Shown in pieces: positions 10,821-20,362 of a DNA stretch of 64,000 nucleotides (the stretch's first letter is position 1; each line of letters begins with the position of its first letter). Source of the DNA: Naegleria gruberi. Lineage: Eukaryota. The notes beneath the pieces were generated by a model. The model ran no database searches and was not told where the DNA came from. It saw only the letters and a program-made list of their open reading frames with translations. A program made the position numbers and the translations under genes. The stretch is taken from NCBI GenBank assembly GCA_000004985.1, contig GG738856.1; one strand, written 5' to 3'.

Positions 10821-11424
10821 TGTTAAATCTATCTGTTGGGGTTTTTTGGTATTCTTGAAAATTACGTAATAGAATGTATGGTGAAATATTTGACGATGAT
10901 CCTGACACAACACACACAAAGGTTCTTTTGCAAAACCGTTTTCTTGTTGTTGTTTTTAGGGAGGTATATATTTCCAATTAATTAATTTAAATATACCAAG
11001 AAGATTTCGTCTAATAAACACTCTCCAATATATTATAAAATATAATCAATCACTCCCAGAGGGTTTGATGATAACTTTCTTGTATAAACGGTTCTACTAC
11101 ACTATCCACAAAATATGTGGTTTGTTGGACAATAATCAAGTGATGACGTTAAAATTTTTTTGCAAGATTTTAGAAGAAGCGCCAACTTGATATGATGACG
11201 ATCAAAATCTCCAACATCTTTTGCTACACGTTCTCTCGCACAAGGAAGTGAAACAAGTGAAGATAAAATTGTATTCAACTACTACGAGCACTAAGTTAAT
11301 ATTAGATTTAAAATTTTTATTAGTAGCATGTTGTATTGATATCCGCCTATGATGGCAATTTTAAAGGAATTTTCTCTTACCAGCAAGCTTTCTTCATCAT
11401 GATGGAAAAATACATTAAAAAAAA

Positions 11425-14400
11425 ATGGAGCCTCAACCAACATTTTCATTTCTCACGCTCATACATCATTTGGTAAAACAATCACACGATGAGTTGAAAA
11501 AATGTGTGTTGGAAATTAAAAAAGGAATGGATAATTCTAATGATCAATTTGAGAGGGAGGCTTCTACGAGGAAACAAATTTTATTTCAACATTTTCAGGA
11601 AACAAGAGAAAGATTTATCCGATTGCTTGTTCTTTTGAGATGGTCAAAGAAATCCAAGAAGACTCTCGACAAATTTAATCAAGTATCATCAGCTATGGAT
11701 TTAAAAGTTAATTCTTTTGATATGGCATCATTTACACTTTTTCATGCTGCAAGGATTTTGTCAAGATTAAGAGAACCTGTTTTTGATCTTCCAACAGCAA
11801 TTGATGTTTTGACAACAGGAACATATCCAAGACTTCCGCATATCATACAACAGGTTGGTATTAATTTCTTACATTAATTAATCGATTATTCTAGTCACGT
11901 GGAGATTTGCAAAATTCTGCAGATGATTTTACTACTCAAGATAAGGAACGTGCTATTTCAAAGCTTACAGATATTATCAGAATGAAATTACTTCAATGCA
12001 CCATTCCTCCAAACATGTTTGTAAATAAGCTTGAAAATGGTCAAGTCAATTTGATAGCTGAAAATGAATTTTCTATAATTATGACATTAAATCATAAACG
12101 TGAGGAGGGTGAATCTAACACTGACGAGCTTAAATATTATTGGCAAATAATTTATTTGGATTTATTGGTTAATGAGGACGGAATCAATGTGAGCCCAATT
12201 CATGATGATATTGTTCAAAGGCTCAGCACTGTGATACAAAAAAGATTATATTATCTTGATGAATCAGATACTATGGTGCCTTCCATGGTTGATATTTATA
12301 ATATCATCCATTTGGTAACTATTAGGATTGCTATGGATATTATTACAAAACAAGCAAAAACATTGAAGTGGCCAAATGAAATTGTTACTTGTGAAACATT
12401 TAATGAGAGCGTAGATCAAGATTTTTCATTATCACTTAAATATTGGCACAAAGCACCTCCTATGGTGTCATTTATCGAGAAAGTTATGGATGGTATTGAG
12501 GATGATGAAAAGAACTTCTTCCTCAAAGATAAAGGATCTAGGAATGAACTTAAAATTTTCATAGACAAATCAAAACAAATTGTCTTTGACATGCAACCAA
12601 AGCTTAGATGCAATTATACTCCAGCTATTAACCTATCAAGAATTAATCTCGGAAAGATTATTAGTGATTGTATTTTTTATCATTCTATTGAAAGACTGGA
12701 AAGTGTAAAAGTTTTCTTAAATAGAGAAAGATTGTTCCCTGATATCCAATTGATAACAGATGCTGAGTCTAATCAAGCTTACTTGTCTATTTCAGTATTC
12801 GAGGAATATATTCTCATTCTAGGTATTGACTGGAAAACAGGTCACTTCCAACTCCATCTTTCAGTTGACGGAGAAAAGCTAGATGTAGACTATTCAGAGT
12901 TTGTTACACGGATTAATAATATTGACGTGAGAAAGTCCAAATTCTCGGAACAACTTCTTTCCTCTCTGGAGGGTGCTAGAAAGAGAACAATTATTCATGC
13001 TTACAAAACAGCAGGTGCTCTTCTCGATTTGGATGTTCATTCAGCTCTATTCGAAGGAGATGGTCTTTCGGATGAAAATGTTTATTTCTCATTCCCAAAT
13101 GTCAGTACAGCATTTATCCAAATTAGAGTCACTCCATTTTCTTACGAAAGAAGAAAACCTTTGGTTTCTTCTAGAGTGGTAATTGAAAGAAGTCCAAAGA
13201 TTATTGATATCCCTATTCCTTCATCACTATTTTTGGATATTTATCAACCTGCCCCTGAGGAAGAAATTGATAGCTATGAGCCAACACAAAAGAGAGTTAA
13301 GAGAATGACATGCATGACTGCACTTCAGAAAACATTGGTTGCTTTCAGACATTTGAAACAAATTATTGCTGCATCAAAGCATAAAGTACTCTTTGGAACT
13401 ATGTTGAGACAAGTTCAAATCTCAAATAGATTCTCATATGATCTTACTGACCAAGAATATGAAATGATTATCCTTCCAAATGATAACTCTAATTTCTCCT
13501 TCCTTGACTTGGAATGCATTACACTTTCGATTGATGTGAATACTTATGAATGGGTCGCTACTGTATATGAAAGAAGACCTCTTCCAGTTATAATTCCTCA
13601 AAATAGCAAACAACACTACGTAAACGACAGACTCACTTTCAAGTATACTACAATGAGAAATTGTCAAAACCTTTTTGAAGAATTTTATCAAGATTTGCTA
13701 TCTATTGACAGAATGTATCCTTTGGCACTCCAAGTTATCCATCCAAGTCCTCACTTTGCTGGTATTCTTCAACAAGCTTGTACTGTAGAAATGGTATCAC
13801 ATACCAAGATTAGAATTGATTACGGAAATTGTGGATATAAATTAATAATCAAGAATGTAGATAAGAGATATAGAGTTATTTTATATCCAACAAATAGATT
13901 TGAAGCAGATCTAGAAGAATATTTTAACAAACACTCTAGAAATGATACATATGGCGAGGTTATGTGCAAGCTAGTTCAACTTCTTTTGAAGTCAACTGTT
14001 CCTCTCAACAAGCTAAAACAATTCTTGTCTGATCGTCATCCAACTTCATGGTATTTGATACCTAGAAGTATGTACAGTTTCAAAGTTGTACACAAGGGAA
14101 AAACAACTAGGGAATTCTTAGTGACATGTAGAGCATCTGGTCAAGTTGAATTCAAAGCCACAGATGATAGTTTCCATGTGATATCAGCACCATTTGGTGA
14201 GGAAATAGATAATGCTGTATTATCTTTAAAGAGATGTTGTACCTCTTCTACACTTCTAGAAAATATGTCACCACCCCTTCAAATTGCTTTAAGCGCTGAA
14301 AATATCAAACAACAAGACAACACCCTTTCATTCTCCTCTCCAACATATGAATATAGCTGTGAGTTCAACAATTATGAATTGAAGTTGACAAAGATTGTTC

Positions 14401-15008
14401 CTAGGAAGAACAGTATCTTGACTAAAGATGAAGAAGAATTTTTGAAAGAAGCTTTCACAAAGTATTACCTTAATTCAGCTTTAGAGGCTGGAGTATCTCT
14501 ATCAGGCAATTTCTTCTCTCATTCATTCCTTTTGATTTTATTCTTCCCAAATCCATTATTCAAGCATGTTGTTCAAGCATGGTACTTGTTGAAGGATAAG
14601 ATAGATCTCGTTTTCTTTAATCCATATCCAGTGCGTAATGCTCAAAGACGTACATATGATGAGTCTTTTGGTCTGGCAGAAGTTAAATTACCAACATCTC
14701 TTTCTGCATTACTTCCAGTCTTTAGTTCTGGAAAAATTATCGAAAAAAAGACATTGAATTCAGTCTATGTTATTACTCTTTTGGTTAGAGTTTACATTGG
14801 TGATGATTTTATTGATTTGCCTATTCAATATGGAGCTAATATGGAATTGAAATTTGGTGATCAAAAGCTCACATCTGAAGTAGCAACGAAGATAATTGGA
14901 GAATCACAAAGGCAAGAAGTTCCTGAAGAAGGATCTGATAATACTCTTCTCAAGTTGTTGACCTACATTACTGCAAACTGTACAATTCCTCAATTACTAG
15001 ATATTTAA
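11425..15008 (+). CDS. MED14: Mediator complex subunit 14. Two exons: 11425..11853 and 11895..15008 (41-nt intron).
   Basis: The N-terminal MED14 signature FIRLLVLLRWSKKS...LPTAIDVLTTGTYPRLP aligns with human LFVRLLALVKWANN...IPYAIDVLTTGSYPRLP, and the alignment continues after splicing as ERAISKLTDIIRMKLL. The donor CAG|GTTGGT is non-consensus but keeps the frame. Confidence 0.8.
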
Positions 15009-15038: not shown

Positions 15039-16670
15039 TTACTTTTTCTTAATGGCCTGTAAAAACATGTCCTCATCTTCTTGCAATTCACTTTCGTTAA
15101 TTACCAGTGTGAAAGTTTTTGATGATTGCTCTCTTTGTTTCTTCTTTGCTTCAATTCTTCTTTGTGCTTGTTCAGATTCTTTTCTATTATCAATAAGTGC
15201 TCGTTCTCTCTTAGTTTCTCTTTCCAACATATTGTTAATAAATTCCTTTTCTTCCAAAACTTGTTGTTTTTCTTCTCCTCTCAATCCTTCACTCACTTCC
15301 AAAAGCCTAGTTGAACCATCTCTTCCACCAACAGCAATATATTTTCCATAAACACTCAAAGTGTGAAGTCCTTGATCTGACAATCTTAGAGACAACAATG
15401 GTTTGCTTTGCTTGTAGAGATAATCCCAAACATCAAGTGTGTCCAATCACCAACAGTCATAAAGTATTTTTGAAGGAATGGATTTCTTTGAATTGAATAA
15501 ATTGGACCATGGTGATGATGATGTCCATAGTAAACTTTATCAATGGCCGTACCCTTATTCTTTCTTCTCGTACAACTCAAAACAGCACCTTGTTCAGTAC
15601 CAATCATAAATTTGGTTGGCTGTGTAGTGTTAAAATTACTGAAATAATTTAGTTCAACTTACACTGTAAGAAACATCGTAATCAATAGATTCACCTCCCA
15701 ATAAACCTTGGAGTTTGCATTCACCATTTTTATCATCAGGAATTCTAAGCTCAAGAGTTTCAGAATCGACTGGATTTGAAAGGTTTCTTGTATCCCAAGT
15801 TAGTACTTGACCATCAGTTGAAGTTGAAATAAAGAATGTTGCACTCTTACTTTGAAGCCATTGAATATCATAAATTGGATCTCTGTGACTTGTTTTAAGG
15901 TCGGAAATGAGAACTTCCTCACCTCCTTTTCTTGTGTCAAATATACAAACAACACCATTGTAGCAACCTCCTGCCACTGTAGAGTTTTCCTTAGGGTTAT
16001 ATCTGATAGATGTTAAATGAGATGATGGAAGTAAAGTCACGTCTGGTTCATTGGCATTATTCACATCCCAAACGTATGCATTTGTCGGTATTTTCTTTGT
16101 TGAACTTTGAAAATCTAGGTTGGCATAAGCTACTGCCAGCTTTGAACCATCACTAGGAAGCCAAGAGATTTTGGTTGCTGTTCTCTTATCTTGGCAAGGA
16201 TCTTTGAACACCGACACAGTTTTAACCATAGATCTTTCACTTCCAAAGTCTTGTACAGTTTCCTTAAAGTAGCTACCAAATATATTGATCGCATTATTTT
16301 GTTGAATGTAATATTCAGCGTTATCTCTTAAAGAGATGAACGAATTCAAATCTTCAATATTATTTTCAATTTTCTTGATGTATCTTTCCTTGCTTGATAA
16401 TTTTGATGTATCGACATCCTTTGGCCAACCTCCTTCATTGTGCATCATTCCTTGTTCTTTTGTTTCATGGGTCTCCGTATTAGTAAAGTGTTCAGAAAAT
16501 TCGGCAACAGCTTGAGCTCCTACACTTCTGGGTTCCCTATTAATATATTTTTGCTTAAATTCCTCACTTGGTTTGATATCAACGATCATTTCGGGTTCAG
16601 TATCCACAAAATGACCACTATATCTACCAAATTGTTTCCTCAGCTTTTTGTATACTGTTACAATATCCAT
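15039..16670 (-). CDS. DNAI2: Axonemal outer-arm dynein intermediate chain 2 (IC2/IC69, WD-repeat). Exons 16670..15663 and 15619..15443, then an apparent frameshift or deletion, then 15437..15039.
   Basis: Strong alignment to DNAI2: MDIVTVYKKLRKQ, HNEGGWPKDV, PTKFMIGTEQG, GPIYSIQRNPF...TVGDW and LDVWDY...LLEVS. A 43-nt GTAAGT intron (15662..15620) is clean. Between TVGDW (frame A) and LDVWDY (frame C) only 5 nt remain where orthologs have about 45 aa. The gene is therefore interrupted as sequenced (see findings). Confidence 0.75.
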
Positions 16671-16942
16671 TTTGAGCACAATGTATAATTAATGTTACTG
16701 AGAGCTACAACGAGCGTGTTGTATTGCCAATTTTTTTTAGTGTTTTTTAAAAAGTTTCCCGCTTTTTTTGTAGTGGCTATTTGTGCCAAGCAAACAACAA
16801 CGACATCGTAAATTTAATTGTTCAATTATATTATTTCATCATCAAATTTATTATATCGGATCATGAAATTAAAAACTGTTTAAAACAGAGAAGGGTATTT
16901 ATTTACAGTTCGCCTAGTAAGTAATATTCACTAAATAATTTT

Positions 16943-18642
16943 CTATCTAATTCTCATAAAATGAATTAGTCCTTTTTCAGAGTCACCAAGTGTGGCCAAA
17001 ACCTTATCTTCAATCATTGAACTTTTTTGACCATTTGATGAAGAGGTAGACGAAGAAGAAGGTACAGATGTGGTGGAGGTTAGTAGAGCAGCTGCTGAGG
17101 AAGAGGCAAGAGCTGGTGAGTTTCTTTTGCTGCTGTTGCTGCTGCTACTGGTCAATCCTCTAATCTTATCATAGCTACTGGATCTGGCATGTCTTCTGTG
17201 TGGAATTGGTGATGAGTGAATAGTTGGTGAGTTGATAAGGGATTGGCATTTGGATGGATCTTGGACAAAATAGTTTAAAAATTGAATTCTGCAAAATGTT
17301 AAATTTGAGGCTGGTGAAATACTTACTTGGTGGTTGCATGTGAAGGTTGATAAGAGGCAGCTTCTTTACATTTTTGTCTAACATCAAACATAATCTTGGT
17401 CTTAATCATAAGCAAAAGTGGTGTAATTGATAGAATATGAGACATGATCAATGTTTGCAACAATAAATTCTTATCCATTGATTGTAAAAAGTCCCAATTC
17501 CATTCACCAATCACTGATTTGAAATACGATTCACTATTACAACAAAACATCATTCCCTTTCCCTCTAAATCAATCTGAATAAACTCCTTATTAGTGGAAT
17601 AATGTTCACACCACTCAAAGATCTGAACAAATACCTGGGATGAGAATACGACACAACCTTCCATTGTAACTTTTTGATTGTAACTTGTTACGAGTGAAGG
17701 AATGTCCTCTGGATAATCGATGGCAAAATGAAAACAAAAAGGAATTTGTAACTCTATGGTTTGGATCTTTCCCTCATCAATCTTACATGCAATGGATGGA
17801 ATGAGGAAGCAAGCATTCTCTGAGATGGTAAGAGTCGTGGATGTTTTCTTTGGAATTTCTTCATCAATCGAATAGTCATTGGAGAAACGAAACTCTACAT
17901 CAGAAAATTGTTTCCCACTTAAACACTTCTTCAATCTCTTGTGTATATACCTCTGTGTAATACAATCGTCAAAGACCCATTCGATTGTTATCGATTTGGG
18001 ATGTAATAATGGTTGTTGTGAAGTTTGTGCTTGAATTGACTCTTCTTGACTCAAATTACCTCTATAACATTGCACATTGAAATGTTTAGAATTAATTGGT
18101 ATGTTGTTTTGTTGATTATGATGTTGCTGTCTCATTGATGATGCTTGACTCCTTTCAGAATTTTGATTAGTAGAAACTGAATCACTTGGAAAGTAATCCT
18201 GACTATTTCCACTATAATTCTGACTCATTGAATTGTTGTTGTACTGAAGCTGCTGATTCAGAAAGCTTTGATGATAATACGAAGTTGGAGAGGCTCTAAA
18301 TGATTTTGATGAAATTTCCTCAATTAACGATTGAGTTGTTTCATCACTAATTTGATCCATCATAAAGGAGGTACTACTGTTTGTTCTGGTAACACTTGTT
18401 TGATGATTATCAGAAGCAGAATTGTGGGGAGTTTGTTGATCATCTTGTTCCTCCATTCTGTTGCTGTTATTTGGAATGCAATAGAGGAAGGATCGACGAA
18501 GCAGTTTTTTAAGTTGCATAAATCTTTTTTTTGGCATTTGATCAACTGAAGATTCTTTGCTTTGGGTTTTAAAAGATGAGCAGCTATGGAATTGTGCTGT
18601 ATATATGGAATGAACATAATTGCAGATTACGTATATTACCAT
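16943..18642 (-). CDS. Hypothetical protein with a Ser-rich C-terminal tail. Two exons: 18642..17327 and 17288..16943 (38-nt intron; GTAAGT donor overlaps the apparent stop of ORF 17323..18642).
   Basis: The 439-aa ORF ends ...ATTK*, where the TAA stop is part of GTAAGT. Splicing to the acceptor TTTTGCAG at 17289 joins in phase 2 to the downstream open frame, which ends ...IEDKVLATLGDSEKGLIHFMRIR. No domain recognised. The start may be the second ATG (MPKKRF, about 18537). Confidence 0.45.
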
Positions 18643-18727
18643 ATTTGTTACCCTACAAAAATAACATATTTTCTAAAAATGGTAGATTGTTATATTTTTA
18701 CATTTTTTACATTTACAAATATAAATT

Positions 18728-20362
18728 TTATTCAAAGGATTCAGTGGCAACAATTGCTTGAACCTCTTTCTTATCACCGATGTAGGCACCTCTCAACAGA
18801 TAAGTCTTGAGATTAATGATATGTTTAGCATCAACTCCTGAAGCATGTGGATGAGTTTGAATTGTCTTGTGTAAAACTTCAATGGTATTAAATTTCCATT
18901 CTTTGGTCTCCTTATTAGGTTCTGTATTTCTATCGATAATGTAATCAAAGAATTCGCTATGTGCATTAACATGATTCTTCACAAGATTGATTCTTGAGCA
19001 CAAGCCTTTCAAAAAGTGATAGATGGCACATCTCACATCAGAGAATGGAGCTCTCAAATTATACATGGCATAGTTCATAATGTAACTGTTAGAAGGTTTT
19101 GTGATACTTGGTTCAATTCTCTTCTTTAACATGGACTCGAGTACGTTGACAATCTTTTCAGCTCTCTCATCGTCAATTCTAGGTGATTCGAGGATAGAGC
19201 CTAGTGAGTGGTAGAATGCTTGAGCAATTTGGTCGTTGATGGAATCGGCATAGAAAACCAGATATTTTGAAAGTTTTTCCTCATCTCCAAGGAGAATAAA
19301 GTCCAAATTCTTTACCGATGATTTACACAAAGCGCCAATTACTGAAATGGCTACTATTTGAGATTCCTTATTGAATGTATTCGAAAGATCTTCATTAAAG
19401 AGTTTCAAAATGATTGATGGTGGCACTGACAATTTGGATTCTTCTCCAAAGAATAAATTTTCTGCAGCATCTGAAATATCAGCAATCAAATTGAGAATAA
19501 ATGTATAGGTGAGTTGATCCTCTTGGTTGTCATTGAGAATAGCCATTAATAAATCAAATGATCCCTCTTCTTTCAAAGAATTGGCTCCTTGTTTCTTGAA
19601 GCTTTGAAGGCAAAGGGCTTTGAAAATTTCCAAAAAGTTTAAAATTGACAAAATATCATCCTTTGAATTCTTAAAATCGTTATTGAACAATTTGAAAAGA
19701 CCAATATTAGAAACAGCATCGAAAGCTTCTTGGGACAGTCCACATAAAGTTGTCATTAATTCATACACTCTAAATCTATTAATTTCATTTCCAGATTTTG
19801 GCAATTCACCCAATAATTTATCAACCAATAAAGCTTTGTGCTTGTAGAAAATTGCATCTATGCCATCCAATGTCGACGCAATGTTTGTGATGATTTTTAC
19901 AGCAACTTTTTCCACAGAAATTTCAGGATCCAACATTCCACTATACAAAATATCCAAAAACAATTCAGGATTAGCCATCAATGTTTGTAAAGTACATCTA
20001 GCAACTTGATTAATGGTCAATCGTCTAACAATTTCGAATGGATGCTTGTATCCCTGTGCAAGAAATTGTCCAACAATCGGATCAACCAACAAAGCTTGAT
20101 TAACATCGGTTTCTTCCATAATTTTCCCAAAAACAAATACTATCAATTGTAACTGTTCAAGTGATTTTGTGTCAAAACATGGCAAAAAGCTTTGAATCGG
20201 AATATTTGTTGTTAATGTTTGCACTCTTTCTCTAGCTGCTCTAGCATCACCTTGTTGAATCAAGTAAGCCTGAAGTGTCTCGAGGGCCTTGATGATATTA
20301 GCCTTCTTTCCACCCTCCAACCAAGTTTTCAATTGGACAAAGTCTGTTGTTGTAGCTGGCAT
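18728..20362 (-). CDS. PSMD5: 26S proteasome non-ATPase regulatory subunit 5 (S5b) homolog
   Basis: A 544-aa ARM/HEAT-like protein. RFRVYELM aligns to RYRVYELI, and the C-terminal INLKTYLLRGAYIG aligns to LRLRTYLSEGPYYV of human PSMD5. Confidence 0.65.
   Translation of the reverse strand: MPATTTDFVQLKTWLEGGKKANIIKALETLQAYLIQQGDARAARERVQTLTTNIPIQSFLPCFDTKSLEQLQLIVFVFGKIMEETDVNQALLVDPIVGQFLAQGYKHPFEIVRRLTINQVARCTLQTLMANPELFLDILYSGMLDPEISVEKVAVKIITNIASTLDGIDAIFYKHKALLVDKLLGELPKSGNEINRFRVYELMTTLCGLSQEAFDAVSNIGLFKLFNNDFKNSKDDILSILNFLEIFKALCLQSFKKQGANSLKEEGSFDLLMAILNDNQEDQLTYTFILNLIADISDAAENLFFGEESKLSVPPSIILKLFNEDLSNTFNKESQIVAISVIGALCKSSVKNLDFILLGDEEKLSKYLVFYADSINDQIAQAFYHSLGSILESPRIDDERAEKIVNVLESMLKKRIEPSITKPSNSYIMNYAMYNLRAPFSDVRCAIYHFLKGLCSRINLVKNHVNAHSEFFDYIIDRNTEPNKETKEWKFNTIEVLHKTIQTHPHASGVDAKHIINLKTYLLRGAYIGDKKEVQAIVATESFE

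What the first reader, a model, noticed from the sequence alone, without database searches (positions are those of the whole stretch)
15039..16679. DNAI2 (outer-arm dynein IC2) carries an internal frameshift and is missing about 45 aa
Exons 1 and 2 align cleanly to DNAI2 up to FMTVGDW (frame A). The next conserved block, LDVWDY..., is in a different frame (frame C), and only 5 nt (acaca) separate them. Orthologs encode about 45 aa there ([44 protein letters not shown]). No GT..AG intron fits between them. The locus is either a recently deleted pseudogene, an assembly or sequencing collapse, or uses non-canonical processing. The deletion may be microhomology-mediated, since it falls in an ACACAC context.
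Basis: seen in the sequence. Interest (0 to 1): 0.55.

Follow-up and report, generated by a model that had tools for sequence, protein, structure and literature searches.

The report
Broken dynein IC2 gene in Naegleria
In the Naegleria gruberi reference genome, the gene for a core flagellar motor subunit (outer-arm dynein IC2/DNAI2) lacks 130 bases, which removes one WD-repeat unit and shifts the reading frame; the public annotation hides this with an invented 26-base intron, and it is most likely a very recent strain-level deletion allele or, less likely, an assembly fault.

Summary
The window is Naegleria gruberi, and the minus-strand gene at 16670..15039 is the syntenic orthologue of outer-arm dynein intermediate chain 2 (DNAI2/IC2/ODA6). 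N. fowleri, N. lovaniensis, Willaertia and a Naegleria-like metagenome organism all have 135 nt (45 codons) in one uninterrupted exon between GDW and LDVWDY. N. gruberi has 5 nt (ACACA), so 130 nt are missing and the frame shifts. The lost piece is one WD-repeat unit in register (strands 5C, 5D, 6A, 6B of a seven-blade propeller) and holds six residues that are invariant across eukaryotes. Read literally, the gene gives a 413-aa truncated protein. The deposited model (XP_002679865, 520 aa) restores the frame only by splicing out 26 nt of conserved coding sequence, which is an annotation artefact. There are no other lesions: both halves show purifying selection and the N. gruberi lineage is not accelerated. 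So the event is very recent, or absent from the organism. I favour a real deletion allele in strain NEG-M (about 0.58) over an assembly or cloning artefact (about 0.30). Recoding and old pseudogenisation are disfavoured. No independent N. gruberi reads were reachable. This is an ordinary kind of lesion, of practical rather than conceptual interest.

The parts
15039..16670 (-). N. gruberi orthologue of outer-arm dynein intermediate chain 2 (DNAI2/IC2/ODA6), from ATG to stop; locus NAEGRDRAFT_60431
   Evidence: P0001 is 98% identical; solved DNAI2/IC2 chains match at E 1e-119 to 1e-115, against 1e-16 to 1e-21 for IC1; synteny on both sides.
15663..16670 (-). Exon 1, 336 codons (MDIVTVYKK...DYDVSYS)
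   Evidence: The exon boundary agrees with the orthologue proteins.
15620..15662 (-). The real spliceosomal intron, 43 nt, GTAAGT...CACAG, phase 0
   Evidence: A 41-nt intron sits at the same position in L001.
15443..15619 (-). Exon 2, part before the break (PTKFMIGTEQ...FMTVGDW), in frame with exon 1
15438..15442 (-). Deletion junction ACACA: the left Thr codon ACA plus CA, the last two bases of the right Thr codon. Relatives have 135 nt here.
15039..15437 (-). Exon 2, part after the break (LDVWDYLYKQSKPLL...AIKKK, stop TAA 15041..15039). It is frame-shifted relative to the upstream part, and open for 132 codons.
   Evidence: dN/dS is 0.12 against L001.
15386..15388 (-). Premature TAA reached when the gene is read literally. 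The product is 413 aa and ends ...GDWTHLMFGIISTSKANHCCL.
15406..15431 (-). Spurious 26-nt 'intron' (GTTTGG...CAAAG) used by the deposited gene model to regain the frame. It is conserved coding sequence (DVWDYLYKQ) in all orthologues.
   Evidence: removing it reproduces P0001 exactly..
11907..15008 (+). Convergent neighbour, Med14-like (downstream synteny anchor)
   Evidence: PF08638; 51% aa identity over 1,055 aa to the neighbour in L001/L002; same arrangement in N. fowleri and N. lovaniensis.
17323..20362 (-). Upstream synteny anchors: a 439-aa ORF and a PSMB-like proteasome subunit gene
   Evidence: PF10508; collinear tblastx matches to the N. fowleri locus L005.

Best explanation
The DNA of the sequenced N. 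gruberi strain (NEG-M) carries, on at least one haplotype, a very recent 130-bp deletion inside exon 2 of its only syntenic DNAI2/IC2 gene. The breakpoints lie at equivalent positions of WD repeats 5 and 6 (GDW-T^IKIW and DG-T^LDVW). One repeat unit is therefore removed, but with 2 nt left over, so the frame shifts. Translation would end 18 codons later and give a 413-aa protein that lacks blade strands from 5C onward and the C-terminal coiled-coil helix. By analogy with Chlamydomonas oda6 and human DNAI2 loss-of-function alleles (established knowledge), this is expected to be a null allele. Shown: the lesion in the assembly, its exact extent, its in-register position, its recency, and the fact that the 520-aa public protein model is an annotation artefact. 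Inferred: that the lesion exists in the organism and not only in the assembly; its zygosity; and its origin by end-joining or slippage with 1-2 nt of microhomology.
For: Exactly 130 nt are missing relative to four relatives, all of which encode the segment in a single exon. The junction is clean, with well-conserved flanks and no N gaps. The two WD units share too little DNA identity for an assembler to collapse them. The locus is the true orthologue by two-sided synteny, and only one N. gruberi protein of this family turned up. The lost segment contains invariant W422, S423, R426, F430, D436 and G437 and equals strands 5C, 5D, 6A, 6B of a 7-blade propeller. Recency: there are no other stops or indels, dN/dS is 0.06 before and 0.12 after the break, and the relative-rate test gives 19 vs 23 unique changes, p=0.54. 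Naegleria strains are heterozygous diploids or aneuploids that propagate clonally, and heterozygosity is reported for N. gruberi (PMC9928731), so a recessive null allele can persist without being noticed. NEG-M is a long-term axenic laboratory line (10.1101/2024.01.08.573270).
Against: No independent N. gruberi read, transcript or assembly could be reached, so the lesion rests on one Sanger-era assembly. Perfect preservation of the rest of the gene is equally what an artefact would look like. NEG-M readily forms flagellates. That is compatible with a heterozygous or even an oda6-like state, but it gives no positive support.
Confidence: 0.58

Rival explanations
1. Assembly or cloning artefact. 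The organism's gene is intact (572 aa), and the 130-bp loss arose in an E. coli shotgun clone or in consensus building at a thinly covered spot.
For: The rest of the gene is flawless and under strong constraint, which is exactly what an intact gene would show. All relatives are intact at 572 aa. Short-direct-repeat deletions are a known cloning artefact (general knowledge). No second data source confirms the lesion.
Against: A multi-read consensus rarely carries a clean 130-bp deletion in unique sequence. There is no repeat long enough to cause a collapse, and no N gap or other irregularity nearby.
Confidence: 0.3
2. The locus still makes a working IC2 through unusual processing, such as the annotated 26-nt micro-intron or a ribosomal or transcriptional frameshift at ACACA. 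The result would be a propeller with one unit fewer.
For: The downstream frame is open for 132 codons. The deletion is almost exactly one WD unit in register, so an in-frame version could in principle close as a six-blade ring. The 26-nt segment has GT..AG ends.
Against: The 26 nt are conserved coding sequence in all orthologues, and the donor GTTTGG differs from the gene's real GTAAGT intron of 43 nt. Splicing it out would also remove strand 6C and leave an incomplete blade. There is no X XXY YYZ slippery site at the junction. Six invariant residues would be lost in any case. The open downstream frame is explained by recency alone.
Confidence: 0.04
3. Long-standing unitary pseudogene. N. gruberi as a species is losing, or has lost, outer dynein arms.
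For: There is a disabling lesion in an essential outer-arm subunit.
Against: There is no second lesion in about 1.6 kb of AT-rich coding sequence. dN/dS is 0.06-0.12, and there is no rate acceleration on the N. gruberi branch. Outer-arm dynein genes are present in N. gruberi and 3 of 4 are induced during flagellate differentiation (10.1101/2024.01.08.573270).
Confidence: 0.03

Closest known systems
Outer-arm dynein intermediate chain 2 (human DNAI2; Chlamydomonas IC2/IC69 = ODA6; Tetrahymena DIC3)
   Same: There is full-length collinear similarity from residue 1, with E 1e-119 to human DNAI2 (8j07) and 6e-115 to Chlamydomonas IC2 (7kzm_E). The architecture is the same: an N-terminal extension, a WD propeller and a C-terminal helix. 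The locus is syntenic with the Naegleria orthologues.
   Different: The N. gruberi assembly copy lacks one WD unit (44 aa plus 1 nt) and is frame-shifted, so it cannot encode the seven-blade propeller or the C-terminal helix.
Loss-of-function alleles of IC2: Chlamydomonas oda6 mutants and human DNAI2 primary ciliary dyskinesia alleles (established knowledge, not re-tested here)
   Same: These are truncating lesions in the same subunit. The expected consequence is failure of outer-arm assembly, with flagella that still form and beat more slowly. That fits NEG-M still making flagellates.
   Different: No phenotype, zygosity or expression data exist for the Naegleria allele. It is a spontaneous lesion found only in a reference assembly.
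Gene-model 'frame-fixing' introns in automated eukaryote annotation
   Same: The deposited model XP_002679865/D2V864 is reproduced exactly by removing 26 nt with GT..AG ends, which restores the frame. In the same family, the N. fowleri nr model P0002 (CAG4717438.1, 526 aa) has a C-terminus unrelated to that of the 572-aa model P0177.
   Different: This is not a biological system. It is listed because it is what database users actually see.

Membership tests
DNAI2 / IC2 outer-arm dynein intermediate chain | Sequence orthology to IC2 rather than to IC1, the inner-arm ICs or the cytoplasmic ICs | tested here: met
   IC2 chains at E 1e-119 to 1e-90; IC1 chains at 1e-16 to 1e-21; others weaker; the top hits that carry a dynein name are DNAI2 or 'dynein intermediate chain 2/3, ciliary'.
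DNAI2 / IC2 outer-arm dynein intermediate chain | Orthologous genomic position within the genus | tested here: met
   PSMB-like gene ... 490-aa gene ... DNAI2 -> <- Med14 in N. fowleri, N. lovaniensis and the window.
DNAI2 / IC2 outer-arm dynein intermediate chain | Complete seven-blade WD40 propeller in one reading frame | tested here: not met
   130 nt are missing; this equals strands 5C, 5D, 6A and 6B; literal translation stops at 413 aa.
DNAI2 / IC2 outer-arm dynein intermediate chain | Invariant residues of blade 6 (W-S-x-x-R-x-x-x-F ... D-G) | tested here: not met
   W422, S423, R426, F430, D436 and G437 are invariant in 43 eukaryotes and absent from the window gene.
DNAI2 / IC2 outer-arm dynein intermediate chain | Incorporation into the outer dynein arm of the axoneme | not testable with these tools
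   This needs a flagellar proteome, or cryo-ET or TEM of NEG-M axonemes.
Unitary pseudogene (evolutionarily decayed gene) | Relaxed selective constraint or multiple disabling lesions | tested here: not met
   dN/dS 0.06 and 0.12; relative-rate test p=0.54; a single lesion only.
Unitary pseudogene (evolutionarily decayed gene) | No intact copy elsewhere in the genome | tested here: inconclusive
   One search found only one N. gruberi protein of this family, and searches found no segment in the window. The rest of the genome and the second haplotype could not be searched.
Spliceosomal intron (the 26-nt segment 15431..15406 of the public model) | Non-coding in orthologues; donor and length like the real introns of the gene; removal restores the conserved protein | tested here: not met
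   the segment encodes the conserved DVWDYLYKQ in all relatives. Its donor is GTTTGG, against GTAAGT for the real intron, and it is 26 nt against 43/41 nt. The resulting product lacks 51 conserved residues.
Programmed ribosomal frameshift site | Slippery heptamer (X XXY YYZ, or a +1 shifty stop) at the frame change | tested here: not met
   the junction reads GAT TGG ACA CAC TTG, with no slippery motif. The target frame has a TGA immediately upstream of the junction (TGA TTG GAC ACA CTT).

The most novel reading that the evidence does not exclude
The deletion is real and present in every genomic copy of NEG-M. The standard axenic laboratory and reference strain of this model for de novo flagellum assembly would then be a spontaneous oda6-like mutant, with flagella lacking outer arms. 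Less likely still, it would make a usable IC2 with one propeller unit fewer from the broken gene, by recoding or a micro-intron.
Probability: 0.18. Interest if true: 0.45.

Novelty: new member of a known kind. Interest (0 to 1): 0.25.

Why it matters
N. gruberi NEG-M is the reference genome for Heterolobosea and a classic model for rapid de novo assembly of basal bodies and flagella. If the lesion is real, the reference strain carries a null allele of an essential outer-arm subunit. That would affect motility measurements, flagellar proteomics, and presence/absence calls in comparative ciliary genomics. If it is an artefact, the reference needs correcting. Either way, the public protein XP_002679865 / UniProt D2V864 (520 aa) is a chimeric model that should not be used in alignments, phylogenies or structure prediction. 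The intact protein should be 572 aa, as in N. fowleri and N. lovaniensis. The in-register loss of one WD unit is a neat small example of how repeat proteins lose units, but it is not a new kind of biology.

Tried and rejected
(1) I searched the 64-kb window for the missing segment by tblastn with human-like, N. fowleri and L001 peptides, and by blastn with three orthologous 135-nt segments. Only chance-level hits came back.

(2) I looked for independent N. gruberi assemblies or transcripts in several ways: exact-product look-ups of the exon-1 ORF, of P0001 and of two neighbouring genes; a second protein search restricted to exon 2, to bring up short fragments; and a degenerate junction-flank DNA scan of the metagenome contigs. 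None gave any N. gruberi sequence. The single metagenome hit (L004) is a ciliate DNAI2.

(3) Literature: no paper mentions NAEGRDRAFT_60431. The papers on Naegleria axonemes, the Naegleria pangenome and outer-arm calcium sensors say nothing about this gene. The genome paper and the 2011 review are not held. The supplements of the RNA-seq preprint are not held.

(4) I scanned the window for other frame breaks as a baseline for assembly quality. This was uninformative, because overlapping open frames are also what short introns produce.

(5) I considered a scrambled or germline-type gene, trans-splicing, and nuclear RNA editing. I rejected them: the code is standard, the gene structure is collinear, and nothing in the sequence supports them.

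(6) I considered assembler collapse of two WD units and rejected it, because they share only scattered identical bases at the breakpoints.

Full report
**What the sequence is.** The window is about 33% GC, gene-dense and mostly free of introns. The conceptual protein of the flagged gene is 98% identical to NAEGRDRAFT_60431 of Naegleria gruberi (EFC47121.1 / XP_002679865.1 / UniProt D2V864, on a 602-kb scaffold). Against solved structures it matches outer-arm dynein IC2 chains: human DNAI2 (8j07) at E 1.7e-119 and Chlamydomonas 70-kDa IC (7kzm_E) at 6e-115. It matches IC1 chains far less well, at 1e-16 to 1e-21.

**The observation.** The gene lies on the minus strand.
- The ATG is at 16670, and exon 1 is 16670..15663 (336 codons).
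- A 43-nt GTAAGT...CACAG intron lies at 15662..15620.
- Exon 2 starts at 15619 and reads to ...QKYFMTVGDW, ending at 15443.
- Five bases, ACACA (15442..15438), follow.
- LDVWDYLYKQSKPLL... then begins at 15437 in another frame and stays open for 132 codons, to TAA at 15041..15039.

N. fowleri, N. lovaniensis, Willaertia magna and a Naegleria-like organism on two metagenome contigs (L001/L002) each have exactly 45 codons (135 nt) between GDW and LDVWDY, all within one uninterrupted exon. The N. gruberi assembly therefore lacks 130 nt and is frame-shifted. The segment is not encoded elsewhere in the window, and the window has no N gaps.

**What the public annotation does.** Removing the 26 nt at 15431..15406 (GTTTGG...CAAAG) from the window sequence reproduces the deposited 520-aa protein residue for residue. 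Those 26 nt encode DVWDYLYKQ, which is conserved in every orthologue. The donor is unlike the gene's real intron (GTAAGT, 43 nt; 41 nt at the same site in L001). The resulting protein lacks 51 conserved residues. This is a frame-fixing artefact of gene prediction. Read literally, the gene ends at a TAA at 15388..15386, giving 413 aa. An intact gene would give 572 aa, the length of the N. fowleri and N. lovaniensis proteins.

**What is lost.** An AlphaFold2 model of the intact Willaertia orthologue was built on a 43-sequence alignment. Its mean pLDDT is 79.6, and above 90 through most of the propeller. It shows seven blades followed by a long C-terminal helix. The missing residues, I395-T438 in Willaertia numbering, are strands 5C, 5D, 6A and 6B. 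This is one WD-repeat unit, cut at equivalent positions of repeats 5 and 6 (GDW-T^IKIW and DG-T^LDVW). The segment holds six residues that are invariant in 43 diverse eukaryotes (W422, S423, R426, F430, D436, G437) and several nearly invariant ones. A loss of 132 nt would have been in frame. The observed 130 nt leaves ACA+CA.

From the orthologue codons, the junction is best reconstructed as the left Thr codon ACA followed by the last two bases of the right Thr codon. That implies only 1-2 nt of microhomology. The ACA/ACA repeat by itself predicts the in-frame product, which is not what is seen. The two repeat units share only scattered identical bases, so an assembler could not have collapsed them.

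**Is it the real orthologue, and how old is the lesion?** Synteny holds on both sides. The Med14-like gene is convergent downstream: 51% identity over 1,055 aa to the neighbour in L001/L002, with the same arrangement in N. fowleri and N. lovaniensis. The 490-aa gene and the PSMB-like gene lie upstream. Only one N. gruberi protein of this family appeared in the protein collection.

There is no other stop or indel. dN/dS against L001 is 0.06 before the break and 0.12 after it, with dS saturated. In a relative-rate test with Willaertia as outgroup, N. gruberi has 19 unique changes against 23 for N. fowleri (p=0.54). The gene was therefore under normal purifying selection until essentially the present. 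The deletion is either very recent or not present in the organism. Old pseudogenisation is rejected. This fits the report that outer-arm dynein genes exist in N. gruberi and that 3 of 4 are induced during differentiation (10.1101/2024.01.08.573270).

**Real allele or artefact?** I could not reach independent N. gruberi data. Exact-product look-ups for this gene and two neighbours, a second protein search restricted to exon 2, and a metagenome DNA scan all returned nothing from N. gruberi.

Arguments for a real allele:
- The break is clean and lies in unique sequence, in a multi-read consensus.
- There is no repeat that could cause a collapse.
- Heterozygosity is reported for N. gruberi, and the genus is described as mainly heterozygous diploid, with ploidy variation and loss of heterozygosity (PMC9928731).
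- NEG-M has a long axenic laboratory history, during which a recessive null in a flagellar gene would be invisible.

Arguments for an artefact:
- The rest of the gene is perfectly preserved.
- Deletions between short direct repeats are known to arise in E. coli clones.

I put a real deletion allele at about 0.58 (zygosity unknown), an assembly or cloning artefact at about 0.30, functional rescue by odd processing at about 0.04, and an old pseudogene at about 0.03.

**Likely consequence (inferred).** The 413-aa product would lack strands from 5C onward and the C-terminal helix. In Chlamydomonas (oda6) and humans (DNAI2 primary ciliary dyskinesia), loss of IC2 prevents outer-arm assembly while flagella still form; this is established knowledge and was not tested here. 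If heterozygous, no phenotype is expected. If homozygous, NEG-M flagellates should lack outer arms and beat more slowly. NEG-M does form flagellates, which is compatible with either state.

**Comparison and novelty.** This is a truncating deletion, or an assembly fault, in a well-known gene, made invisible by a spurious intron. It is a known kind of thing in a new place. Its value is practical. It flags D2V864/XP_002679865 as a bad model, warns users of NEG-M, and gives a simple PCR or read-mapping test. The in-register loss of one WD unit is a nice detail, but it is not a new mechanism.

Noticed in passing
window 18643..18727 (gap between the ORFs 17323..18642 and 18728..20362); compare L005 622..1596 and L006 792..1728: N. 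fowleri and N. lovaniensis have a DUF498 (PF04430) gene between the PSMB-like gene and the gene upstream of DNAI2. The N. gruberi window has only 86 nt there, and nothing in its 64 kb matches it by tblastx. This is a lineage-specific gene loss, gain or relocation.
   Followed up: partly
P0002 (N. fowleri CAG4717438.1, 526 aa) versus P0177 (572 aa): This N. fowleri nr model ends in ...EYINNVSTFEIQFSKLDLTMFY, which is unrelated to the corresponding region of the 572-aa model. The likely cause is read-through into a 3' intron. It is a second faulty model in the same gene family.
   Followed up: no
window 15520..15506 (minus strand), protein GHHHHHGP: Naegleria and Willaertia IC2 proteins carry a run of 3-5 histidines where the eukaryote consensus is GHHGP. 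Its significance is unknown.
   Followed up: no
L004 (metagenome contig Ga0115007_10065665): The only metagenome hit to the QKYFM[TS]VGDW DNA pattern is a DNAI2 gene with many in-frame TAA/TAG codons, so it comes from a ciliate-type genetic code. It also contains the full WD unit that N. gruberi lacks.
   Followed up: partly
window 11419..11874 and 11895..15005 (+): The Med14 Pfam match starts at profile position 132 at residue 9 of the long open frame. The N-terminal part of Med14 is therefore probably in the separate upstream open frame, joined by a short intron. The N. fowleri and N. lovaniensis models are 1,216 and 1,188 aa, against 1,033 aa for this ORF.
   Followed up: no
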